The position numbers were made by a program. Below, piece after piece: positions 21,001 to 27,000 of a stretch of DNA of 64,000 bases (positions are counted from its first letter, which is position 1; the number at the start of each line of letters is the position of its first letter). The stretch is taken from NCBI GenBank assembly GCA_963664225.1, contig OY760937.1:2656001-2720000 (forward strand), in the 5' to 3' direction. The stretch is from Verrucomicrobiia bacterium. GTDB taxonomy: Bacteria > Verrucomicrobiota > Verrucomicrobiia > Limisphaerales > UBA1319.

Positions 21001-24000
21001 TAACCAAGCGTCGCCCAGTAGCTTGCATCCACGCCGTAATGGTGCCGGTGCGTTGTCTGCAAACAGCGGTTTACAATCGGATCGCTGTCGTGCTTGAGAT
21101 AGTCCAGATGGTAATCCCGGACGAGTGACTGCGTCTTCTCGATGGCCCACGCCCTGGCTTCCGGCGACCCCAGACACAATTTCGCGCCGTAATGAGGCCC
21201 GGGCGTCCAACCGGCGGGAGTATTGGTGCTGAACCAATCGGGGTGGCCGTTCGGACCCCGCACACTTAACGCGCCGGGTTCTTCCGAAATGCCGCCATTG
21301 CTCCAGGCGCACCAAAGGGCCTGCCGCATGCCGTTTGTATGAACCCATGCCTCTATGGGTTTGATGCCCTGGGGAAAACGGCGTGGATCCCAACGCCAAT
21401 CTCCGCATTCGGGATACCACATGGCGTCGGGCATGAACGCCTCAAAACCGAGTTCGTGACAAAACCGCGCGCTACGCAACACGTCTGCTTCGGTCGCGTT
21501 GGTCATGCCGTAATCGAGATAAAGATTATACGCCAGGATCGGGTCTGGAACGGCCGCAGGCAGCGGTGGGCGCAACTTCTCGATTACAAAGCGGTGAAGG
21601 CTGTAACTGCCCTCCTCCAGATCTCCCGAGTAACATCCGACAAAGGCAGGCGGGATCTTCAGAGTCTCACCCGGCTCGATGTCCGTCTTGAACCCGGGCC
21701 AAAGTCCCGCGGCAATGCTCAAGCCGGCATCTCGTCCCAGGGCCTGCACCCGCCCGAGTCCCGAGAATTCCCAACCGAGGTATAATCCGCGCTTTTCGCC
21801 CTCCTGCACCGCGAGCCATGGCACCGGGCTGGCGCCGTCATCGCAATTATTGGTCAACACCAGGCTTGTCCCGTTGGTCAGAGGTTGGGAAAACGTGCCG
21901 CCCTGCGTCGTGGCAGACGCGCCGCCACGCTTGATCCACCAAAGTTGCGAAGCCGCCCTTGGGCCAATCCCAATCAATGCCAGACTCTCCTGCTGGGAAA
22001 TAGACACGCGCCGGGGCGAAGCGTTTCGAATTTCCACCCAATGCTCAATGGGGCCGCGCCCCGGACGCGCGCGCCAGACCGATTCCAGCACCAGCGATGG
22101 CTCGCGATTCAGGAACTCAACGCGCAAAACGCCCGACTTTTCCAACGCTTTGGAATACTGCCATGCCGCTGGACGATCGCTTCCGTCCACACCGACACGC
22201 TCCAGCAAAGGCAACGGCGATGGGCTCGAAAGCCAGTTTTCACGCGAATGGACATCTTCCAGGCGTTGAACCACGAGCGTGTTGTCGCGCAGGCCCAATT
22301 CAATGACGGTGTCCGAGGTGGAAAGGGTCCAGGTTTGCGCAGCCATCGACGGTCGCGGCGAAACGGCAAACAAAAGCAGGAGAAGGCCGGTCCATCTGCC
22401 GAGCAAACGACGCGGCCGGGAGTTTTGGCCTGGAAACATGACGGACAAAAAATCGGCGCTATTCATCGGATGTTTCATGACTTGCTTTGTTCTCAATCTC
22501 CATGGTTGCTTCAGCGAAAAACCCTGTTTTCCCTGATCCCGCAGATGACCGCGTCCTTCGGGACATTTCGGGACCGCCATCGATCCTTGCCATAGCCTTT
22601 TGCCATGGACGGAAATTTCAATTGTCTCAATTGCTTCATTGCAGCCAACCGGGGGAATGGGATCGCCCTTATGATGCCTTGATTCGTCCATTGATCAAGC
22701 CGCCATTTTCCGGTTTTTATTAGCAGATGGAGCGCGGAACAAAATCCAAGGCATCGAGCTAAAGCACCCAATCATTCCAGCACAGGGCGCGAAAAGGGTG
22801 GTTTCTTTGCATTGGCCGTAATCCAGGCCCGCACATTGACAATTACGGTTGGACATTCCTCATTTCAGTGCGATTAGTTCTTCATCTGGAAGGTATAAGA
22901 CCTGCGTATGCACGGCAGGGCCGTTTAGTTCGACCAATGAATGAGTAGCTTGATTTGCCATGAAAACGATGAACCGATTATTCCTCAGCGCGGCCGCGGC
23001 TTTTGCCTTGCTCGCCTCCATTTCCACTCAGGCGGCCGTGGACATGTTTCTGGACATGGGCAAAGACATACCCGGGGAATCCACCGATAAAGCGCATCCC
23101 AACACCGTGGATGTCCTGGCCTGGAGCTGGGGAATGTCCAACTCAGGCACGACTCACCTTGGCGGAGGCGCGGGTGCGGGCAAGGCGAGCTTCCAGGACT
23201 TGAGCCTCACGAAATATGTGGACAAGGCCAGTCCCAATCTCATGTTGTACTGCGCCAACGGAAAGCATTTCGCAACCGCCACCTTGATCGTTCGCAAAGC
23301 TGGCGCAGTACCGGTCGAATACATCAAAATCACGATGTCGGAAGTCATGGTAACCAGCGTTTCGACGGGGGGATCCGGCGGGGAGGATCGTCTGACAGAG
23401 AACATCACCTTGAATTTTGCAAAAGTTGATTTCAGTTATGTGCCCGTGGATCCCAAGGGAGGTGCCGGTACGGCCGTCGAGATGAAGTGGGATATCGCGG
23501 CCAACATCGCGCAATGATGGCTGGACTCTGTAACTCAGAGCCCGCTTGAGTGCGGTTTGTGTTTTCATTCCTATTGCGCCTATGTCAACATCAAGAACTG
23601 CAATCCTCGCCTTGGGCTTGTTATTGGCCATTGGCCAGAGCGGCTCGCTGCATGCGGCCATCGACATGTTCCTCAAGGTTGGGAACATCAAAGGGGAGTC
23701 CACAGATCCCGCCCACCCGCAGGAAATCAACGTGCTGGCCTGGTCCTGGGGAATGTCCCGTCCCGCTCCTCCCATTCCCGGAGGAGGAACTGCCATCAGC
23801 AAGGTTTCACTGAGCAGCCTGTCACTGACAAAATACGTGGACTCGTCGAGCGCGCCGCTGATGAAATACTGCGCCACTGGAAAAACACTGTCCAACGCGC
23901 AACTGACATTGCGTACGGCGGGCGATCAACCGTTGGAGTTCTGCACCATTACCATGACGAATGTCATGATCGTCGGCATTGCATCCGGCGGTTCGGGCGG

Positions 24001-27000
24001 TGAGGATCGCCTGACTGAGAACATCACCCTCGACTTTGAGACGCTCAACGTCATCTACCATCCGGTCGCCAACACCACCCTTGAACCTCGAATCGGTTTC
24101 GATTGGAGCGTCGTAGCGGACACGGGGTTGGCCAGTGTCGTCCCCAATCCCTTGCCCGCTCCGGTTCCCAGCCTGGTCTCAACCCTTTCCCATACCAATG
24201 ACACTCCCTTCGCGCAATTGACCTGGGTGAGCACCGCAGGCGCCATCTACCGGATCTGGGCTGCCGACAGCGTTGAGTCTGGTTATCAGGTTTACGGAGG
24301 AGATATCCCATCCGCAGGAGACGGGACCACTTCCATGACCCTTCCGGCGATCCTGGGACGCAAGTTTTTCAGGATCGAAACGGTCTCTGTTAAATGAGTT
24401 CCCAGTGTGAATGGCCCAATTCCGCCCGCGGTTCCCTGCAGGTGCGGGGGATGTTCTGGTCGGCAGGAAAACTCATATAGCCGACTTGCGGTGACGGCCC
24501 CCACAGTCGCCAAACCCGGGAGGATTATCTTGTTGTCACTTCAATCAGACCTTTTAAATTGACCCATATGCGTTCGCCACTCTTTCGCCATTCTCGCATC
24601 CCGCATTATGCCGGATGCATTGCCATACCGTTTTTGTTTTTGACTGCCGCCGTTTCCACCTTGCTGGGCGCCCCGGCCGACGCGCAGGACCGGCCTGTGG
24701 ACTATATCCGTCCATTTGTTGGCACCCAGGGTGAGGGAAACACCTACCCCGGCCCTTCGGCCCCTTTTGGGATGGTGCAACTCAGCCCGGATACCGATCG
24801 AGACCTGTGGGAAACGGCTTCCGGTTATGAATACTCGGACACCTCCATCATGGGCTTTACGATGACGCATTTGTCGGGTACGGGCATTCCCGATCTGGGT
24901 GACTTTTTGTTCATTCCGCAGATCGGCGAACCCAAACTGACTTGCGGGACGAAGAAGGATCCGGATGTCGGCTATCGCGCCCGCTATTCGCACGATCAGG
25001 AGTCTGCTTCCGCGGGTTATTACAAGGTCAAACTCCTCAATAACAACGTGACGGTCGAACTGGCCGCGGCGGAGCGGGCGGGCATGATGCGCTTCACCTT
25101 TCCAGAGAGCAATCAGGCCAGCATCATGACGGACCTGCAGCATTTCCTGAGCGGGAATCGCTTTAAACTGATCTGGTCCCACGTTCGCGTCGAAGACCAG
25201 TCCACCGTCACCGGTTTTCATCTGGTCAACGGCTGGGGCAAGGAGCGTTATCTCTATTATGCCGCCCGTTATTCCAGGCCTTTTGACACGTACCGCATCA
25301 TGAGCAATGGCAGCGAAGTCAAATACGACAGCTACAAGACCTACCGCTTTCGCAGCAGGAATGAAGCTGCGGGGACAAATCTCCAATTTCTGGCTGAATA
25401 CAAAACCCGTGCCAATGAGGCCATCACGGTCAAGGTCGCGGTCTCAGCGGTCAGCGCCGCCAACGCGATGAAAAACCTGGACTCCGACATTCCGGAATGG
25501 AACTTCGAGGCCGTGGTTCAAGGCACCCGCGAGAAATGGAATCGCGAGCTGAGCCGGATTGAAATCGAAGGTTCGCCTGCGGACAAGGAAACTTTTTACA
25601 CCAGCATGTATCATCTGTTCCTGGCGCCCAATATTTACCAGGATGTCACAGGCGAGTATCGCGGTCTGGACTCCAATATCCATCAGGCCAGGGGATTCAA
25701 AAACTACGCCGTATTCTCCCTCTGGGATACCTATCGCGCCGCGCATCCGCTCTTCACGCTCATCCAGTCGCAGCGGGATTCAGATATGATCAATTCCCTG
25801 CTGGCTCATTTCGACCAGAGTGTCGATCACCTCCTGCCATTATGGTCGCTCCAGGGCAATGAAACCTGGTGCATGATCGGCTATCACGCAGTGCCGGTGA
25901 TCGTGGACGGCTTTCTCAAAGGCGTGAAGGGTTTCGACAGGGAACGCGCCTACCATGCCATCAAGACCAGCGCCATGAACCCCGACTATGATGGTGTGGC
26001 GGCTTATGCCCAACTCGGCTGGGTTCCCTTCGACAAGGAGAATGAGTCCGTTTCCAAGACGCTGGAATACGCTTATGACGACTATTGCGTCGCCCAAATG
26101 GCCAGGGCCCTGGGCAAAAAGGAGGACTACGCCTATTTCATGAAACGTTCCATGGGATACACGAATCTTTACGATCCCTCGGTGGGTCTCATGCGCGGGA
26201 AAGACTCCCTCGGAAAATGGCGGACTCCCTTTGATCCCCACGGCTACGACGACGCGAGCCGGAACAATGATTTCACGGAAGGCACGAGTTGGCAGTATTC
26301 GTGGTATGTGCCGCAGGATGTTCCCGGAATGATCCAGCTTTTCGGCGGCAAGGATGCATTCATCCAGAAACTGGATAGCCTCTTCACCTATACCAACATC
26401 AACGCCAAAGGACTGGATGACGTTCAGGGACGCATAGGCGAATACTGGCACGGCAACGAACCCAGCCATCATATCATCTATCTTTATAGCTGCGTCGGCC
26501 AGCCCTGGAAAGCCGCCCAGCGCGTGCATGAAGTTCTCAAAACCCAGTATGGCAGCCAGCCCAATTCACTCAGCGGAAACGACGATTGCGGCCAGATGTC
26601 CGCCTGGTATCTCTTCACCGCCATGGGCTTTTATCCTGTTTGCCCGGCCAGCGACCAGTATGTCATTGGCAGTCCTGCATTAAAGAAAGCCGTGATGCAC
26701 CTTTCCAATGGACGGAAATTCACCATGCGGGCGGATGAACTTTCAGAGCAAAATATCTATGTTCAATCCGTGAAGCTGAATGGGAAAACGTGGGACAGCC
26801 CCATGCTGCCATACAACGCGGTGAAAAACGGTGGAACCATTTTGTTCAAGATGGGGCCGCAACCCAACACCTCATGGGGAACAAACGGTTGTTTTGCAAA
26901 ATAACCGCATTGAACCCGATCCATAGCCTGGCGACCTGTTCCATCGCAGGTTTGCCAGGTGCGTGATTCTTCGGGCTTGCGGGTTTGCATTTGGGATCGC

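What a model noticed while it worked through the whole genome (the two positions that open the first line are those of the whole stretch)
22960..24397. Sec-signal-bearing Hcp tube-protein homologues in a genome without a type VI secretion system
Three proteins with a full, high-scoring Hcp (T6SS tube) domain, g02211, g02212 (a tandem pair) and g02989, all begin with a classical Sec signal peptide, and the genome holds no other T6SS or contractile-tail gene. I read them as an Hcp lineage that has left the T6SS and is exported by the Sec route to the periplasm or surface, where a short/long pair may build a ring or tube with a new job (the pair sits among secreted glycoside hydrolases). New would be a T6SS-independent, Sec-dependent life of the Hcp fold, conserved across Limisphaerales.
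Evidence so far: pfam.tsv: T6SS_HCP only in g02211 (185 aa), g02212 (271 aa), g02989 (216 aa, at 3672152-3672802); no VipA/VipB/TssF/G/K, VgrG, PAAR, gp25, sheath or baseplate family in any gene. Six-frame search: Hcp E 6e-39, 4e-32, 3e-30 in G000; VipB/TssC 0 matches in G000. N-termini MKTMNRLFLSAAAAFALLASISTQA/AVD, MSTSRTAILALGLLLAIGQSGSLHA/AID, MNRKNLLFLLFGLASLLASIQASA/QG. In 61 Limisphaerales genomes Hcp is in 15 and TssC in 2 (G013, G025), where Hcp lies next to TssC. In-frame sequence ahead of the Hcp domain: the 2 T6SS-linked Hcps start at once (max 10-residue hydropathy 0.44 and -1.04); of 19 Hcp matches from 11 TssC-less relatives 17 have a hydrophobic leader (2.2-3.5), mostly ending AxA (e.g. 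LLAAP [...]
(Added by a program. Inside this text positions count along the whole contig: contig position 2,656,001 is position 1 of the stretch shown here. "Call 12" and the like, gene names such as g00115 and contig names such as C1 are that model's own, and its searches are not shown. The text may have been shortened before it was handed on; [...] marks where a part breaks off. The agent that wrote the report below was given it as the finding of a first reader that could run no searches.)

Follow-up and report, generated by a model that had tools for sequence, protein, structure and literature searches.

The report
Sec-exported Hcp pair without T6SS
Two neighbouring genes encode close relatives of the type VI secretion "tube" protein Hcp that carry ordinary export signals in a genome with no type VI machinery, so this well-known fold seems to have a second, unstudied life outside the cell membrane.

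Summary
Window 22960-23517 and 23582-24397 (+) encode full Hcp domains behind 25-residue signal-peptide-like leaders. The closed genome has a third such gene and none of seven contractile-machine families.

Leader and missing T6SS go together. In 401 genomes of the phylum, 25 of 26 Hcp matches in TssC-positive genomes start directly at the Hcp fold. In 12 TssC-less relatives, 21 of 22 carry a start codon plus a hydrophobic leader. In 101 genomes of the order, the figures are 3 of 3 and 32 of 34.

The predicted cut (A-x-A|A-V/I-D-M-F) would leave the N-terminus that leaderless Hcps show after their first Met.

The unit is a conserved two-gene module. A bare short Hcp is followed by a long Hcp with a 74-1128-residue tail. 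That tail ends in an Fn3-like domain also found at the C-terminus of about 114 ORFs of this genome. Relatives insert cadherin, Big_9 or TSP3 domains, or carry a PEP-CTERM tail. Leader-bearing forms also occur in Kiritimatiellota and ammonia-oxidising archaea.

My reading is a Sec-exported, T6SS-independent Hcp scaffold of the envelope or surface. Function and ring assembly are untested. It is not one lineage, and the glycoside-hydrolase context is not conserved. I found no published description.

The parts
22960..23517 (+). hcpS: short Sec-type Hcp, 185 aa (signal peptide plus a bare Hcp domain, about 1 residue beyond the domain)
   Evidence: ORF. Pfam T6SS_HCP E 3.2e-39. Nearest solved chain is 1y12 (P. 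aeruginosa PA0085/Hcp1), E 4.9e-58 over residues 24-183. It is 60-87% identical to leader-bearing relatives and 65-70% to the leaderless ones in the same alignment.
22960..23034 (+). predicted SPase-I signal peptide of hcpS, 25 aa: MKTMNRLFLSAAAAFALLASISTQA, with the cut before AVDMFL
   Evidence: Sequence. The same anatomy (basic start, uncharged hydrophobic core, A-x-A, then AVDMF) recurs in relatives whose leader letters differ. Max 10-residue hydropathy is 2.31. No trained predictor was available.
23518..23581 (.). 64-base spacer between hcpS and hcpL; no terminator-like site
   Evidence: 0 terminator-like sites in 22600-24650, and no promoter-like site ahead of hcpL by a sigma-70 consensus that may not suit this phylum.
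23582..24397 (+). hcpL: long Sec-type Hcp, 271 aa (signal peptide, Hcp domain, Fn3-like C-terminal domain)
   Evidence: ORF. Pfam T6SS_HCP E 3.8e-32. Full-length relatives of 243-277 aa are 42-75% identical. The ATG at 23582 is supported because relatives such as P0122 start at the same Met.
23582..23656 (+). predicted SPase-I signal peptide of hcpL, 25 aa: MSTSRTAILALGLLLAIGQSGSLHA, with the cut before AIDMFL
   Evidence: In alignment A1 the column just before the Hcp fold is A in at least 90% of rows. The AF2 model shows helix 3-18 at low confidence. Max hydropathy is 3.12.
23657..24130 (+). Hcp-fold domain of hcpL (residues about 26-183)
   Evidence: AF2 model mf43f6a9c6128, pLDDT mostly 75-94 here. 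VIA-align Z 19.8 (rmsd 2.6, 153 aligned) to the Hcp1 part of 4ksr, Z 19.1 to 7fcf and Z 19.0 to 3eaa.
24137..24394 (+). C-terminal Fn3-like beta-sandwich of hcpL (residues about 186-271), ending ...RKFFRIETVSVK
   Evidence: Model pLDDT 74-84. Matches Fn3-like domains at Z 6.7-7.2 (5g56, 3mpc, 2c4f, 7ox5), a weak level. No Pfam or NCBIfam family at E up to 5 and 1. An iterated profile finds the domain in 114 ORFs of this genome, and 104 of 115 copies end within 12 residues of the ORF end.

Best explanation
hcpS and hcpL form a two-gene module of Hcp-fold proteins that no longer serve a type VI secretion system.

Shown by sequence and comparison: each has a 25-residue leader with the anatomy of a Sec/SPase-I signal peptide. 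The predicted cut leaves a mature N-terminus (AVDMF.../AIDMF...) equal to what leaderless Hcps show after their initiator Met. The genome lacks sheath, baseplate, spike and PAAR families. Leader presence and TssC absence go together across the order and the phylum. The short-then-long order is conserved.

Inferred: both proteins are exported through SecYEG and cut by signal peptidase I, then fold into Hcp rings in the periplasm or beyond. HcpS supplies bare ring subunits. HcpL supplies a ring subunit whose Fn3-like C-terminal domain ties the assembly to the envelope, surface or matrix. In relatives, TSP3, cadherin or Big_9 modules or a PEP-CTERM tail take that role. The assembly acts as a structural or adhesive scaffold.

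I put about 0.85 on 'exported and T6SS-independent', about 0.5 on 'HcpS and HcpL co-assemble' and about 0.35 on 'surface scaffold or adhesin'.
For: 1. Leaders. 25 of 26 Hcp matches in the 17 TssC-positive genomes of the phylum sample begin M-A-x-x directly at strand 1. The one exception, the second Hcp of G081, lies 97 kb from TssC. In the 12 TssC-less relatives, 21 of 22 matches have a start codon plus a hydrophobic leader. In the order sample, 3 of 3 TssC-linked Hcps are leaderless and 32 of 34 genes in 18 TssC-less relatives have leaders.
2. Leader letters diverge while leader features and reading frame persist, and the junction is fixed at A|A-V/I-D-M-F.
3. No T6SS. Seven families give 0 matches in the closed genome. 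Among the 12 relatives, TssF is in 0 of 12 and Phage_GPD in 1 of 12, on another contig.
4. Module. Over both samples I found 22 tandem pairs in relatives and measured 21. The first gene has 6 or fewer residues beyond the Hcp domain in 21 of 21. The second has 74-1128 residues in the 18 that could be measured. Flanking genes differ in every locus.
5. Extracytoplasmic character of the tails. Big_9, Cadherin and TSP3_bac occur in relatives. A PEP-CTERM-like tail occurs in L076. The C-terminal domain is shared with about 114 ORFs, of which 71 of 112 have signal-like N-termini against 113 of 400 background ORFs.
6. Strong constraint. 58 of 68 positions conserved in leaderless Hcps keep the same residue in the short form. 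All six Hcp1 lumen residues named in PMC8262886 are identical in HcpS and HcpL.
7. Hcp fold of HcpL at Z 19-20.
Against: No trained signal-peptide predictor, no proteomics and no RNA data were available, so export and cleavage are inferred. My rule-based test is crude: it missed G004 and made false calls at internal Mets.

One leaderless Hcp sits in a genome without a TssC match (G476, a 79% complete MAG). One leader-like stretch has no ATG, GTG or TTG ahead of it (the first Hcp of G257).

With TssC in only 19 of 401 genomes, the near-absence of co-occurrence between leader-bearing Hcp and T6SS is what independence would give. It is not evidence of exclusion.

The high conservation of lumen and other residues would fit a cargo-binding role as well as a scaffold. 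The C-terminal domain family rests on an iterated profile that may have drifted, and its Fn3 assignment is weak (Z about 7). How a ring of this size would pass an outer membrane is unexplained. Ring formation and HcpS-HcpL contact were not tested.
Confidence: 0.6

Rival explanations
1. Periplasmic decoy or sponge against incoming type VI attacks. An exported ring that closely resembles the attackers' Hcp1-type tube protein recaptures or blocks Hcp-borne effectors delivered into the periplasm.
For: The mature short form is 65-70% identical to leaderless Hcp1-type proteins of Proteobacteria. All six lumen residues reported as needed for Tse1-4 binding are kept. Distribution is patchy and accessory-like: 22 of 101 genomes of the order, and the pair is missing in the same-genus genome G447. 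The carriers lack a T6SS of their own.
Against: The lumen residues are near-invariant in the whole subfamily, so they do not discriminate. The long partner carries adhesin-type and anchoring domains that a soluble sponge does not need. Leader-bearing forms occur in archaea; that archaea are not known T6SS targets is my recollection, not a call. No anticorrelation with T6SS beyond chance can be shown.
Confidence: 0.12
2. Extracytoplasmic chaperone or carrier. The Hcp ring keeps its receptor role but now holds the cell's own Sec-exported proteins in the periplasm or at the surface. Candidates are the many proteins with the shared C-terminal domain, or secreted glycoside hydrolases.
For: The Hcp lumen is a known effector receptor (passages of PMC8262886) and its residues are conserved here. 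In the window the pair lies among glycoside hydrolases GH39, GH36-like, GH92 and GH9. The shared C-terminal domain links HcpL to about 114 mostly large ORFs.
Against: The hydrolase neighbourhood is not conserved. Only 1 of 14 related loci has a GH next to the pair (G104, a GH2). No candidate cargo gene travels with the module.
Confidence: 0.12
3. Ordinary orphan T6SS hcp genes left after loss of the system, with mis-called starts. The true proteins would begin near the Hcp fold (GTG at 23038 in hcpS, ATG inside AIDMF in hcpL) and stay in the cytoplasm, decaying or moonlighting.
For: A GTG codon encodes V27 of hcpS and an ATG encodes M29 of both genes. Orphan hcp genes are common in T6SS-bearing bacteria (general knowledge; search listing).
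Against: The upstream frame stays open and signal-like in 21 of 22 and 32 of 34 relatives, although the letters change. All 28 TssC-linked Hcps lack it (25 in the phylum sample and 3 in the order sample). The residue before the fold is Ala, not Met, in at least 90% of rows of both alignments. There are no signs of decay: conservation equals that of working tube proteins.
Confidence: 0.03
4. Exported delivery module for a toxin or enzyme, an Hcp-ET analogue that uses Sec or T2SS in place of T6SS. The long form's tail would be the active part and the short form a helper.
For: Hcp with C-terminal extension toxins is a known architecture (reference 33 in PMC8262886, seen in the reference list only). 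Tails are variable, 74-1128 residues.
Against: No tail matched a toxin or enzyme family. What matched was Big_9, Cadherin, Cadherin_5, TSP3, HYR and MopE. The window's tail is a small Fn3-like sandwich. No immunity-like gene follows the pair.
Confidence: 0.05

Closest known systems
Canonical T6SS tube protein Hcp/TssD, nearest solved example P. aeruginosa Hcp1 (PA0085, PDB 1y12)
   Same: Same Pfam family and same fold: E 4.9e-58 for hcpS, and model of hcpL at Z 19-20 to Hcp structures. 58 of 68 conserved positions and all six named lumen residues are kept.
   Different: Canonical Hcp has no signal peptide, is made in the cytoplasm, polymerises inside a TssBC sheath on a VgrG hub and is encoded with the T6SS core. 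Here a Sec-type leader is present and sheath, baseplate, spike and PAAR families are absent from the genome.
Hcp-domain genes with a PEP-CTERM sorting signal, removed as a filtering step in Howard et al. 2021 (mBio, PMC8262886, Methods passage)
   Same: These are Hcp domains joined to a signal for export and surface sorting. L076 (a Rubrivivax MAG) has leader, Hcp and a PEP-CTERM-like tail.
   Different: That paper only discards them and does not describe or interpret them (passage read). The window's proteins have no PEP-CTERM tail. They have an Fn3-like C-terminal domain and occur as a short/long pair.
Hcp with C-terminal extension toxins (Hcp-ET)
   Same: An Hcp domain followed by a variable C-terminal extension, as in hcpL.
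   Different: Hcp-ET proteins are T6SS cargo with toxin domains and no leader (recalled, and cited in the reference list of PMC8262886, not read). Here the tails are adhesin-like or Fn3-like and the protein has a signal peptide.
Bacteroides fragilis Hcp2-Hcp3 heterohexamer (PDB 9vnd, title seen)
   Same: It is a precedent that two different Hcp paralogues can share one ring, as proposed for HcpS and HcpL.
   Different: That ring belongs to a T6SS and carries an effector. Co-assembly of HcpS and HcpL is not tested here.

Membership tests
Pfam T6SS_HCP (PF05638) | Score above the gathering cut-off (23.5 bits) over most of the profile | tested here: met
   134.6 bits at profile 5-129/129 for hcpS; 111.7 bits at 1-127/129 for hcpL; 106 bits for the third gene.
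NCBIfam TIGR03344 (type VI secretion system tube protein TssD) | Score above the curated cut-off (58.9 bits) | tested here: not met
   hcpS scores 45.9 and hcpL 37.6 bits. The third, Hcp3-like gene does pass at 117.5 bits.
Hcp fold (tail-tube-like beta-barrel) | Predicted structure superposes on solved Hcp chains | tested here: met
   hcpL model residues 26-183: Z 19.8, 19.1, 19.0 and 18.2 to 4ksr (Hcp1 part), 7fcf, 3eaa and 3v4h. hcpS was not folded; its sequence match to 1y12 is E 4.9e-58.
Functional T6SS tube protein (TssD) | Encoded in a genome with the T6SS core, usually beside it | tested here: not met
   0 matches for VipB, TssF, TssK, Phage_GPD, gp25, Phage_sheath_1 and PAAR in the closed genome. 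Flanks are glycoside hydrolases.
Functional T6SS tube protein (TssD) | No N-terminal signal peptide; the protein starts at strand 1 (M-A-x-D...) | tested here: not met
   25-residue hydrophobic leaders ending A-x-A precede the fold. All 28 TssC-linked Hcps examined lack one.
Functional T6SS tube protein (TssD) | Forms hexameric rings that stack into a tube | not testable with these tools
The fold tool gives no coordinates. Ring formation is inferred only from 65-70% identity to ring-forming Hcp1-type proteins.
Sec/SPase-I signal peptide | Basic n-region, uncharged hydrophobic h-region and small residues at -3 and -1 | tested here: inconclusive
   All three features are visible in both leaders and in relatives. 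They were judged by rule and hydropathy only, with no trained predictor and no experiment.
PEP-CTERM/exosortase substrates | C-terminal P-E-P motif, transmembrane helix and basic tail | tested here: not met
   hcpL ends ...RKFFRIETVSVK with no such tail. The tail is seen only in the distant relative L076.

The most novel reading that the evidence does not exclude
Exported Hcp rings stack on their own outside the cytoplasm into a sheath-less tube or fibre. HcpS would be the bulk subunit and HcpL the anchoring or tip subunit. This would be a new class of Sec-dependent surface filament built from a phage-tail-tube fold. It would be present in PVC bacteria, some Proteobacteria (PEP-CTERM forms) and ammonia-oxidising archaea. 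The six-Hcp-domain single chains of planctomycetes would be a covalently closed version of the same ring.
Probability: 0.2. Interest if true: 0.85.

Novelty: new variant of a known kind. Interest (0 to 1): 0.72.

Why it matters
Hcp is treated as a hallmark of type VI secretion. Its gene is used to call T6SS presence, and its appearance in supernatants is used to score T6SS activity.

A widespread set of Hcp proteins with their own export signals, in genomes without any contractile machinery, means that 'Hcp' annotations in PVC bacteria, some archaea and metagenomes do not indicate T6SS. These genes make up 19 of 22 Hcp-positive genomes in this order and 13 of 30 in the phylum sample.

It also offers a natural case of a phage-tail-tube fold re-used as an exported building block. 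The leader is joined so that cleavage restores the native N-terminus. That makes testable whether Hcp rings or tubes can assemble and work without sheath, hub or baseplate.

The shared C-terminal domain on about 114 ORFs may mark an unrecognised sorting or anchoring route in Verrucomicrobiota.

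Tried and rejected
- Complex prediction for mature HcpS with the Hcp domain of HcpL was not available, so nothing was folded.
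- The look-up of sequencing runs listed no RNA holder, so I laid no reads and say nothing on expression.
- The consensus promoter and terminator scan gave nothing usable.
- The protein-atlas search on the C-terminal domain gave only unnamed verrucomicrobial clusters at 0.85, a lead-level score.
- Pfam and NCBIfam have no family for the C-terminal domain. Weak sub-threshold hits to Amuc_1099, MtsC, MtsD and CglD come from the TSP3 repeats only. I do not file the proteins under these families.
- Glycoside-hydrolase context as a clue to function was rejected because it is not conserved.
- A single origin of the leader was rejected on the tree, but the tree is weak: 159 columns, 54 of 128 forks open.
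- 7fcf is titled 'Fimbrial protein' in the sequence file. It proved to be a T6SS Hcp crystal structure, and a paper search for its code found nothing relevant.
- I asked whether the six-domain planctomycete Hcp sits in a T6SS-less genome. It does not: Pirellulaceae SH467 has TssC and two ordinary Hcps 2.37 Mb away.
- Eight paper searches for a description of signal-peptide-bearing or T6SS-independent Hcp found none. Subscription journals are not covered.
- My first rule-based signal test produced false calls at internal Mets, so I use it only as a rough count.

Full report
**What is there.** Window 22960-23517 (+) encodes a 185-residue protein and 23582-24397 (+) a 271-residue protein, 64 bases apart. 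Both match Pfam T6SS_HCP over almost the whole profile (E 3.2e-39 and 3.8e-32). NCBIfam's TssD model scores them below its cut-off (45.9 and 37.6 bits against 58.9). The nearest solved chain to the short protein is P. aeruginosa PA0085/Hcp1 (1y12, E 4.9e-58, residues 24-183). An AlphaFold2 model of the long protein (30-row alignment A1, mean pLDDT 72.8) has an Hcp domain at residues 26-183. That domain superposes on Hcp structures at Z 19.8 (4ksr), 19.1 (7fcf) and 19.0 (3eaa). Residues about 186-271 form a small beta-sandwich that matches Fn3-like domains only weakly (Z 6.7-7.2). I call the genes hcpS and hcpL.

**The genome has no contractile machine.** The window's genome is one contig of 5.78 Mb, 96.35% complete. 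Six-frame searches find three Hcp matches: the pair, and a third at contig 3672392-3672754. There are 0 matches for VipB/TssC, TssF, Phage_GPD (VgrG), GPW_gp25, Phage_sheath_1, TssK and PAAR. Each of these searches rang in the E. coli control. VipA, TssG and TssM were not searched.

**The leaders.** Each protein begins with 25 residues made of a basic start, an uncharged hydrophobic core and small residues at -3 and -1:
- hcpS: MKTMNRLFLSAAAAFALLASISTQA, then AVDMFL.
- hcpL: MSTSRTAILALGLLLAIGQSGSLHA, then AIDMFL.

Among the 120 best relatives of hcpS in the large protein collection, the leaderless ones (158-163 residues, 65-71% identical) begin M-A-V-D-M-F. The leader-bearing ones (181-267 residues) read ...A-x-A then A-V-D-M-F. 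The leader is therefore joined so that the predicted cut leaves the N-terminus that leaderless Hcps show after their first Met. The leader letters differ freely between relatives while the features and the open frame persist. That is the pattern of a working signal peptide, not of untranslated DNA. An internal GTG (V27 of hcpS, 23038) and the ATG of M29 are possible alternative starts. However, the residue before the fold is Ala, not Met, in at least 90% of rows of both alignments. No trained predictor was available, and my rule-based test is crude.

**Leader and T6SS across genomes.**

Phylum sample, 401 genomes including this one:
- Hcp is in 30 genomes, TssC in 19, both in 17, TssC alone in 2 and Hcp alone in 13.
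- I read the in-frame sequence ahead of every Hcp match.
- In the 17 TssC-positive genomes, 25 of 26 matches start directly at the fold. The exception is the second Hcp of G081, 97 kb from TssC, which has a leader.
- In the 12 TssC-less relatives (93-100% complete, 12 genus codes and 11 family codes), 21 of 22 matches have a start codon and a hydrophobic leader. One (the first Hcp of G257) has the hydrophobic stretch but no ATG, GTG or TTG ahead of it.
- These 12 genomes also lack TssF (0 of 12). One has a Phage_GPD match on another contig.

Order sample, 101 genomes including this one:
- Hcp is in 22 genomes and TssC in 3.
- The 3 TssC-linked Hcps are leaderless.
- The 35 matches in the 18 TssC-less relatives make 34 genes. 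Of these, 32 have leaders and 1 is leaderless (G476, a 79% complete MAG). One is an internal domain behind an RHS-like motif (G479). One long gene (G460) is frameshifted.

With TssC this rare (19 of 401), the one genome that holds both kinds is about what independence predicts. The data show that leader-bearing Hcps do not need a T6SS. They do not show that the two exclude each other.

**A conserved two-gene module.**
- Tandem pairs occur in 9 of the 12 phylum relatives and in 12 of the 18 order relatives.
- That makes 22 pairs in relatives. I measured 21 and left out the frameshifted G460 pair.
- In 21 of 21 measured pairs the first gene ends within 6 residues of the Hcp domain.
- The second gene carries 74-1128 further residues in the 18 that could be measured. 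Two did not align and one is cut by a contig end.
- Short and long relatives also share contig lengths at least ten times in the protein collection.
- Genes flanking the module differ in all 14 related loci that I annotated: housekeeping and assorted genes, no T6SS gene, and a glycoside hydrolase next to the pair only in G104.
- The hydrolases around the window's pair (GH39 with SASA, melibiase with NPCBM, GH92, GH9) are therefore not part of the unit.
- The same-genus genome G447 has only the third-type Hcp. A split ISAzo13-type transposase lies 5 kb downstream in the window. The pair looks like accessory DNA.

**The tails point outside the cell.**
- Long forms end in a conserved domain of roughly 55 residues (...W.S..G..Y.V......FFRIE...), well aligned in 30 relatives.
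- A profile of it, iterated four times over the 47,785 stop-to-stop ORFs of this genome, grows from 5 to 34, 89 and 114 ORFs. Of 115 copies, 104 end within 12 residues of the ORF end. Profile drift is possible.
- Carriers are mostly large (median 785 residues). They are enriched for signal-like N-termini by my rough rule: 71 of 112 against 113 of 400 background ORFs.
- Neither Pfam nor NCBIfam models the domain.
- Between Hcp and this domain, relatives insert TSP3 repeats, Big_9, Cadherin, Cadherin_5, HYR or MopE modules. These are extracellular-type modules.
- A Rubrivivax MAG protein has leader, Hcp and a PEP-CTERM-like tail.
- Of 76 relatives longer than 324 residues, 37 have a hydrophobic leader directly before the Hcp domain.

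**A second subfamily does the same.** The third Hcp of this genome (216 residues) has a leader, a linker of about 45 residues and an Hcp domain nearest to P. aeruginosa Hcp3 (3he1, E 4e-25). It passes the TssD cut-off. Its neighbour is a separate secreted protein with TSP3 repeats and the same C-terminal domain. That neighbour lies downstream here (L003 1912-2829) and upstream in G327 and G081. So a leader-bearing Hcp is paired with a carrier of that domain either by fusion (hcpL) or by adjacency.

**Not one lineage.** A quick IQ-TREE of 131 Hcp domains had 51 rows with a leader and 80 without. I dropped rows scoring under 40 bits against my profile, and took every fourth leaderless protein hit and every second leaderless locus. 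The tree needs 10 changes of the leader label, at least 4 of them forced by starred branches. The shuffled mean is about 40, and none of 500 shuffles is as low. The tree is short (159 columns) and poorly resolved (54 of 128 forks open). I take from it only that the leader was gained or lost several times. L076 sits inside a leaderless, mostly unnamed clade at 98 support, and L054 inside a proteobacterial clade at 95.

**Constraint.** I took the 68 mature positions conserved at 90% or more in 166 leaderless hits; that set is biased towards the query. Of these, 58 keep the same residue at 90% or more in 23 short leader-bearing proteins, and only 3 are changed. Mean pairwise identity is 0.69 for leaderless, 0.655 for short and 0.555 for long forms. 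Passages of PMC8262886 name six Hcp1 lumen residues as needed for effector binding: L28, A29, S31, T59, S115 and T122. All six are identical in HcpS (alignment) and HcpL. They are near-invariant in the subfamily, so they do not decide between roles.

**What is known.** Eight full-text searches found no description of signal-peptide-bearing or T6SS-independent Hcp. Subscription journals are not covered. The nearest mention is a Methods passage of Howard et al. 2021 (PMC8262886, passages read). It says Hcp genes with a PEP-CTERM signal were removed before building their Hcp tree. In PMC3482391 I read only the Hcp passages, which concern T6SS toxins. PDB 9vnd, seen by title only, is a precedent for two Hcp paralogues in one ring.

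**How it most likely works.**
- Shown: the anatomy, distribution and conservation described above.
- Inferred: SecYEG export and SPase-I cleavage at A25|A26. The proteins then fold into Hcp rings outside the cytoplasm. HcpS acts as the bare subunit, and HcpL as the subunit that ties the assembly to the envelope, surface or matrix through its tail.
- I favour a structural or adhesive scaffold because of the tails. The rivals are a periplasmic decoy for incoming T6SS effectors, a carrier for the cell's own exported proteins, and an exported toxin module. A mis-annotated orphan hcp is close to excluded.
- Nothing here shows where the proteins end up, whether rings or tubes form, or what they do.

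Noticed in passing
whole genome G000; in the window 24137-24394 (+) and the C-terminus of ORF 53506-55227 (-): A C-terminal domain of roughly 55 residues (pattern W.S..G..Y.V...L..W......D.....FYRV..P) is found by an iterated profile in 114 ORFs. 104 of 115 copies lie at the extreme C-terminus of mostly large ORFs, which are enriched for signal-like N-termini by a rough rule. Pfam and NCBIfam have no model for it. It could be a sorting or anchoring domain of Verrucomicrobiota.
   Followed up: partly
P0234-P0242; L122 6001-9276 (Pirellulaceae bacterium SH467): Planctomycete proteins of about 1050 residues hold six tandem Hcp domains in one chain, possibly a covalently closed ring. They sit behind an N-terminal RRR..FExLExRxLL motif. 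The SH467 genome also has TssC and two ordinary Hcps 2.37 Mb away.
   Followed up: partly
P0278-P0282, P0286-P0288: Proteins named from Nitrosopumilaceae and Nitrosotenuis archaea (353-399 residues) have a signal-like leader ending A|AVDMF, an Hcp domain 46-48% identical to hcpS, and a conserved C-terminal motif (...WW.DD.IS..EF...LEFLI.NGII). They are Hcp folds in ammonia-oxidising archaea.
   Followed up: no
L076 3206-3985 (Rubrivivax sp. MAG): A 259-residue protein combines a signal-like leader, an Hcp domain and a PEP-CTERM-like tail (IPEP, a hydrophobic helix, then RRRQR). It lies next to gyrB with no T6SS gene in the 7.8 kb held.
   Followed up: no
L003 1912-2829; L009 8693-9583; L017 8730-9698: The Hcp3-like leader-bearing Hcps sit next to a separate protein of about 300 residues with a leader, TSP3 repeats and the same C-terminal domain. 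The N-terminal halves of these partners differ between the window's genome and the G327 and G081 genomes.
   Followed up: partly
window 29576-30811 (-): An ISAzo13-type DDE transposase is split into two ORFs (Pfam DDE_Tnp_ISAZ013, profile 2-226 and 231-308), about 5 kb downstream of the pair.
   Followed up: partly
L147 (G479:C171:1461-1742): A weak Hcp-like domain (profile 38-129) lies inside a larger ORF. It follows a stretch that, from memory, resembles the end of an RHS core.
   Followed up: no
P0291-P0301, P0305, P0306: Hcp-domain proteins of 328-430 residues come from eukaryotic transcriptome sets and JGI samples, some with Pfam PF25416. Several begin with an Hcp-like M-A-V/I-D-M-F-L. 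Origin and meaning are unknown.
   Followed up: no
P0246, P0248, P0249: Database entries that look like engineered constructs. P0246 and P0248 have a secretory leader fused to an Hcp1-type sequence and a viral fusion-glycoprotein domain with His and Strep tags. P0249 is a Vps4-Hcp1 PDB chain. They are a reminder that synthetic sequences sit among hits.
   Followed up: no
L134 (G460:C23:28907-29267): The long Hcp gene of this MAG is read in two frames, from a frameshift or an assembly error.
   Followed up: no
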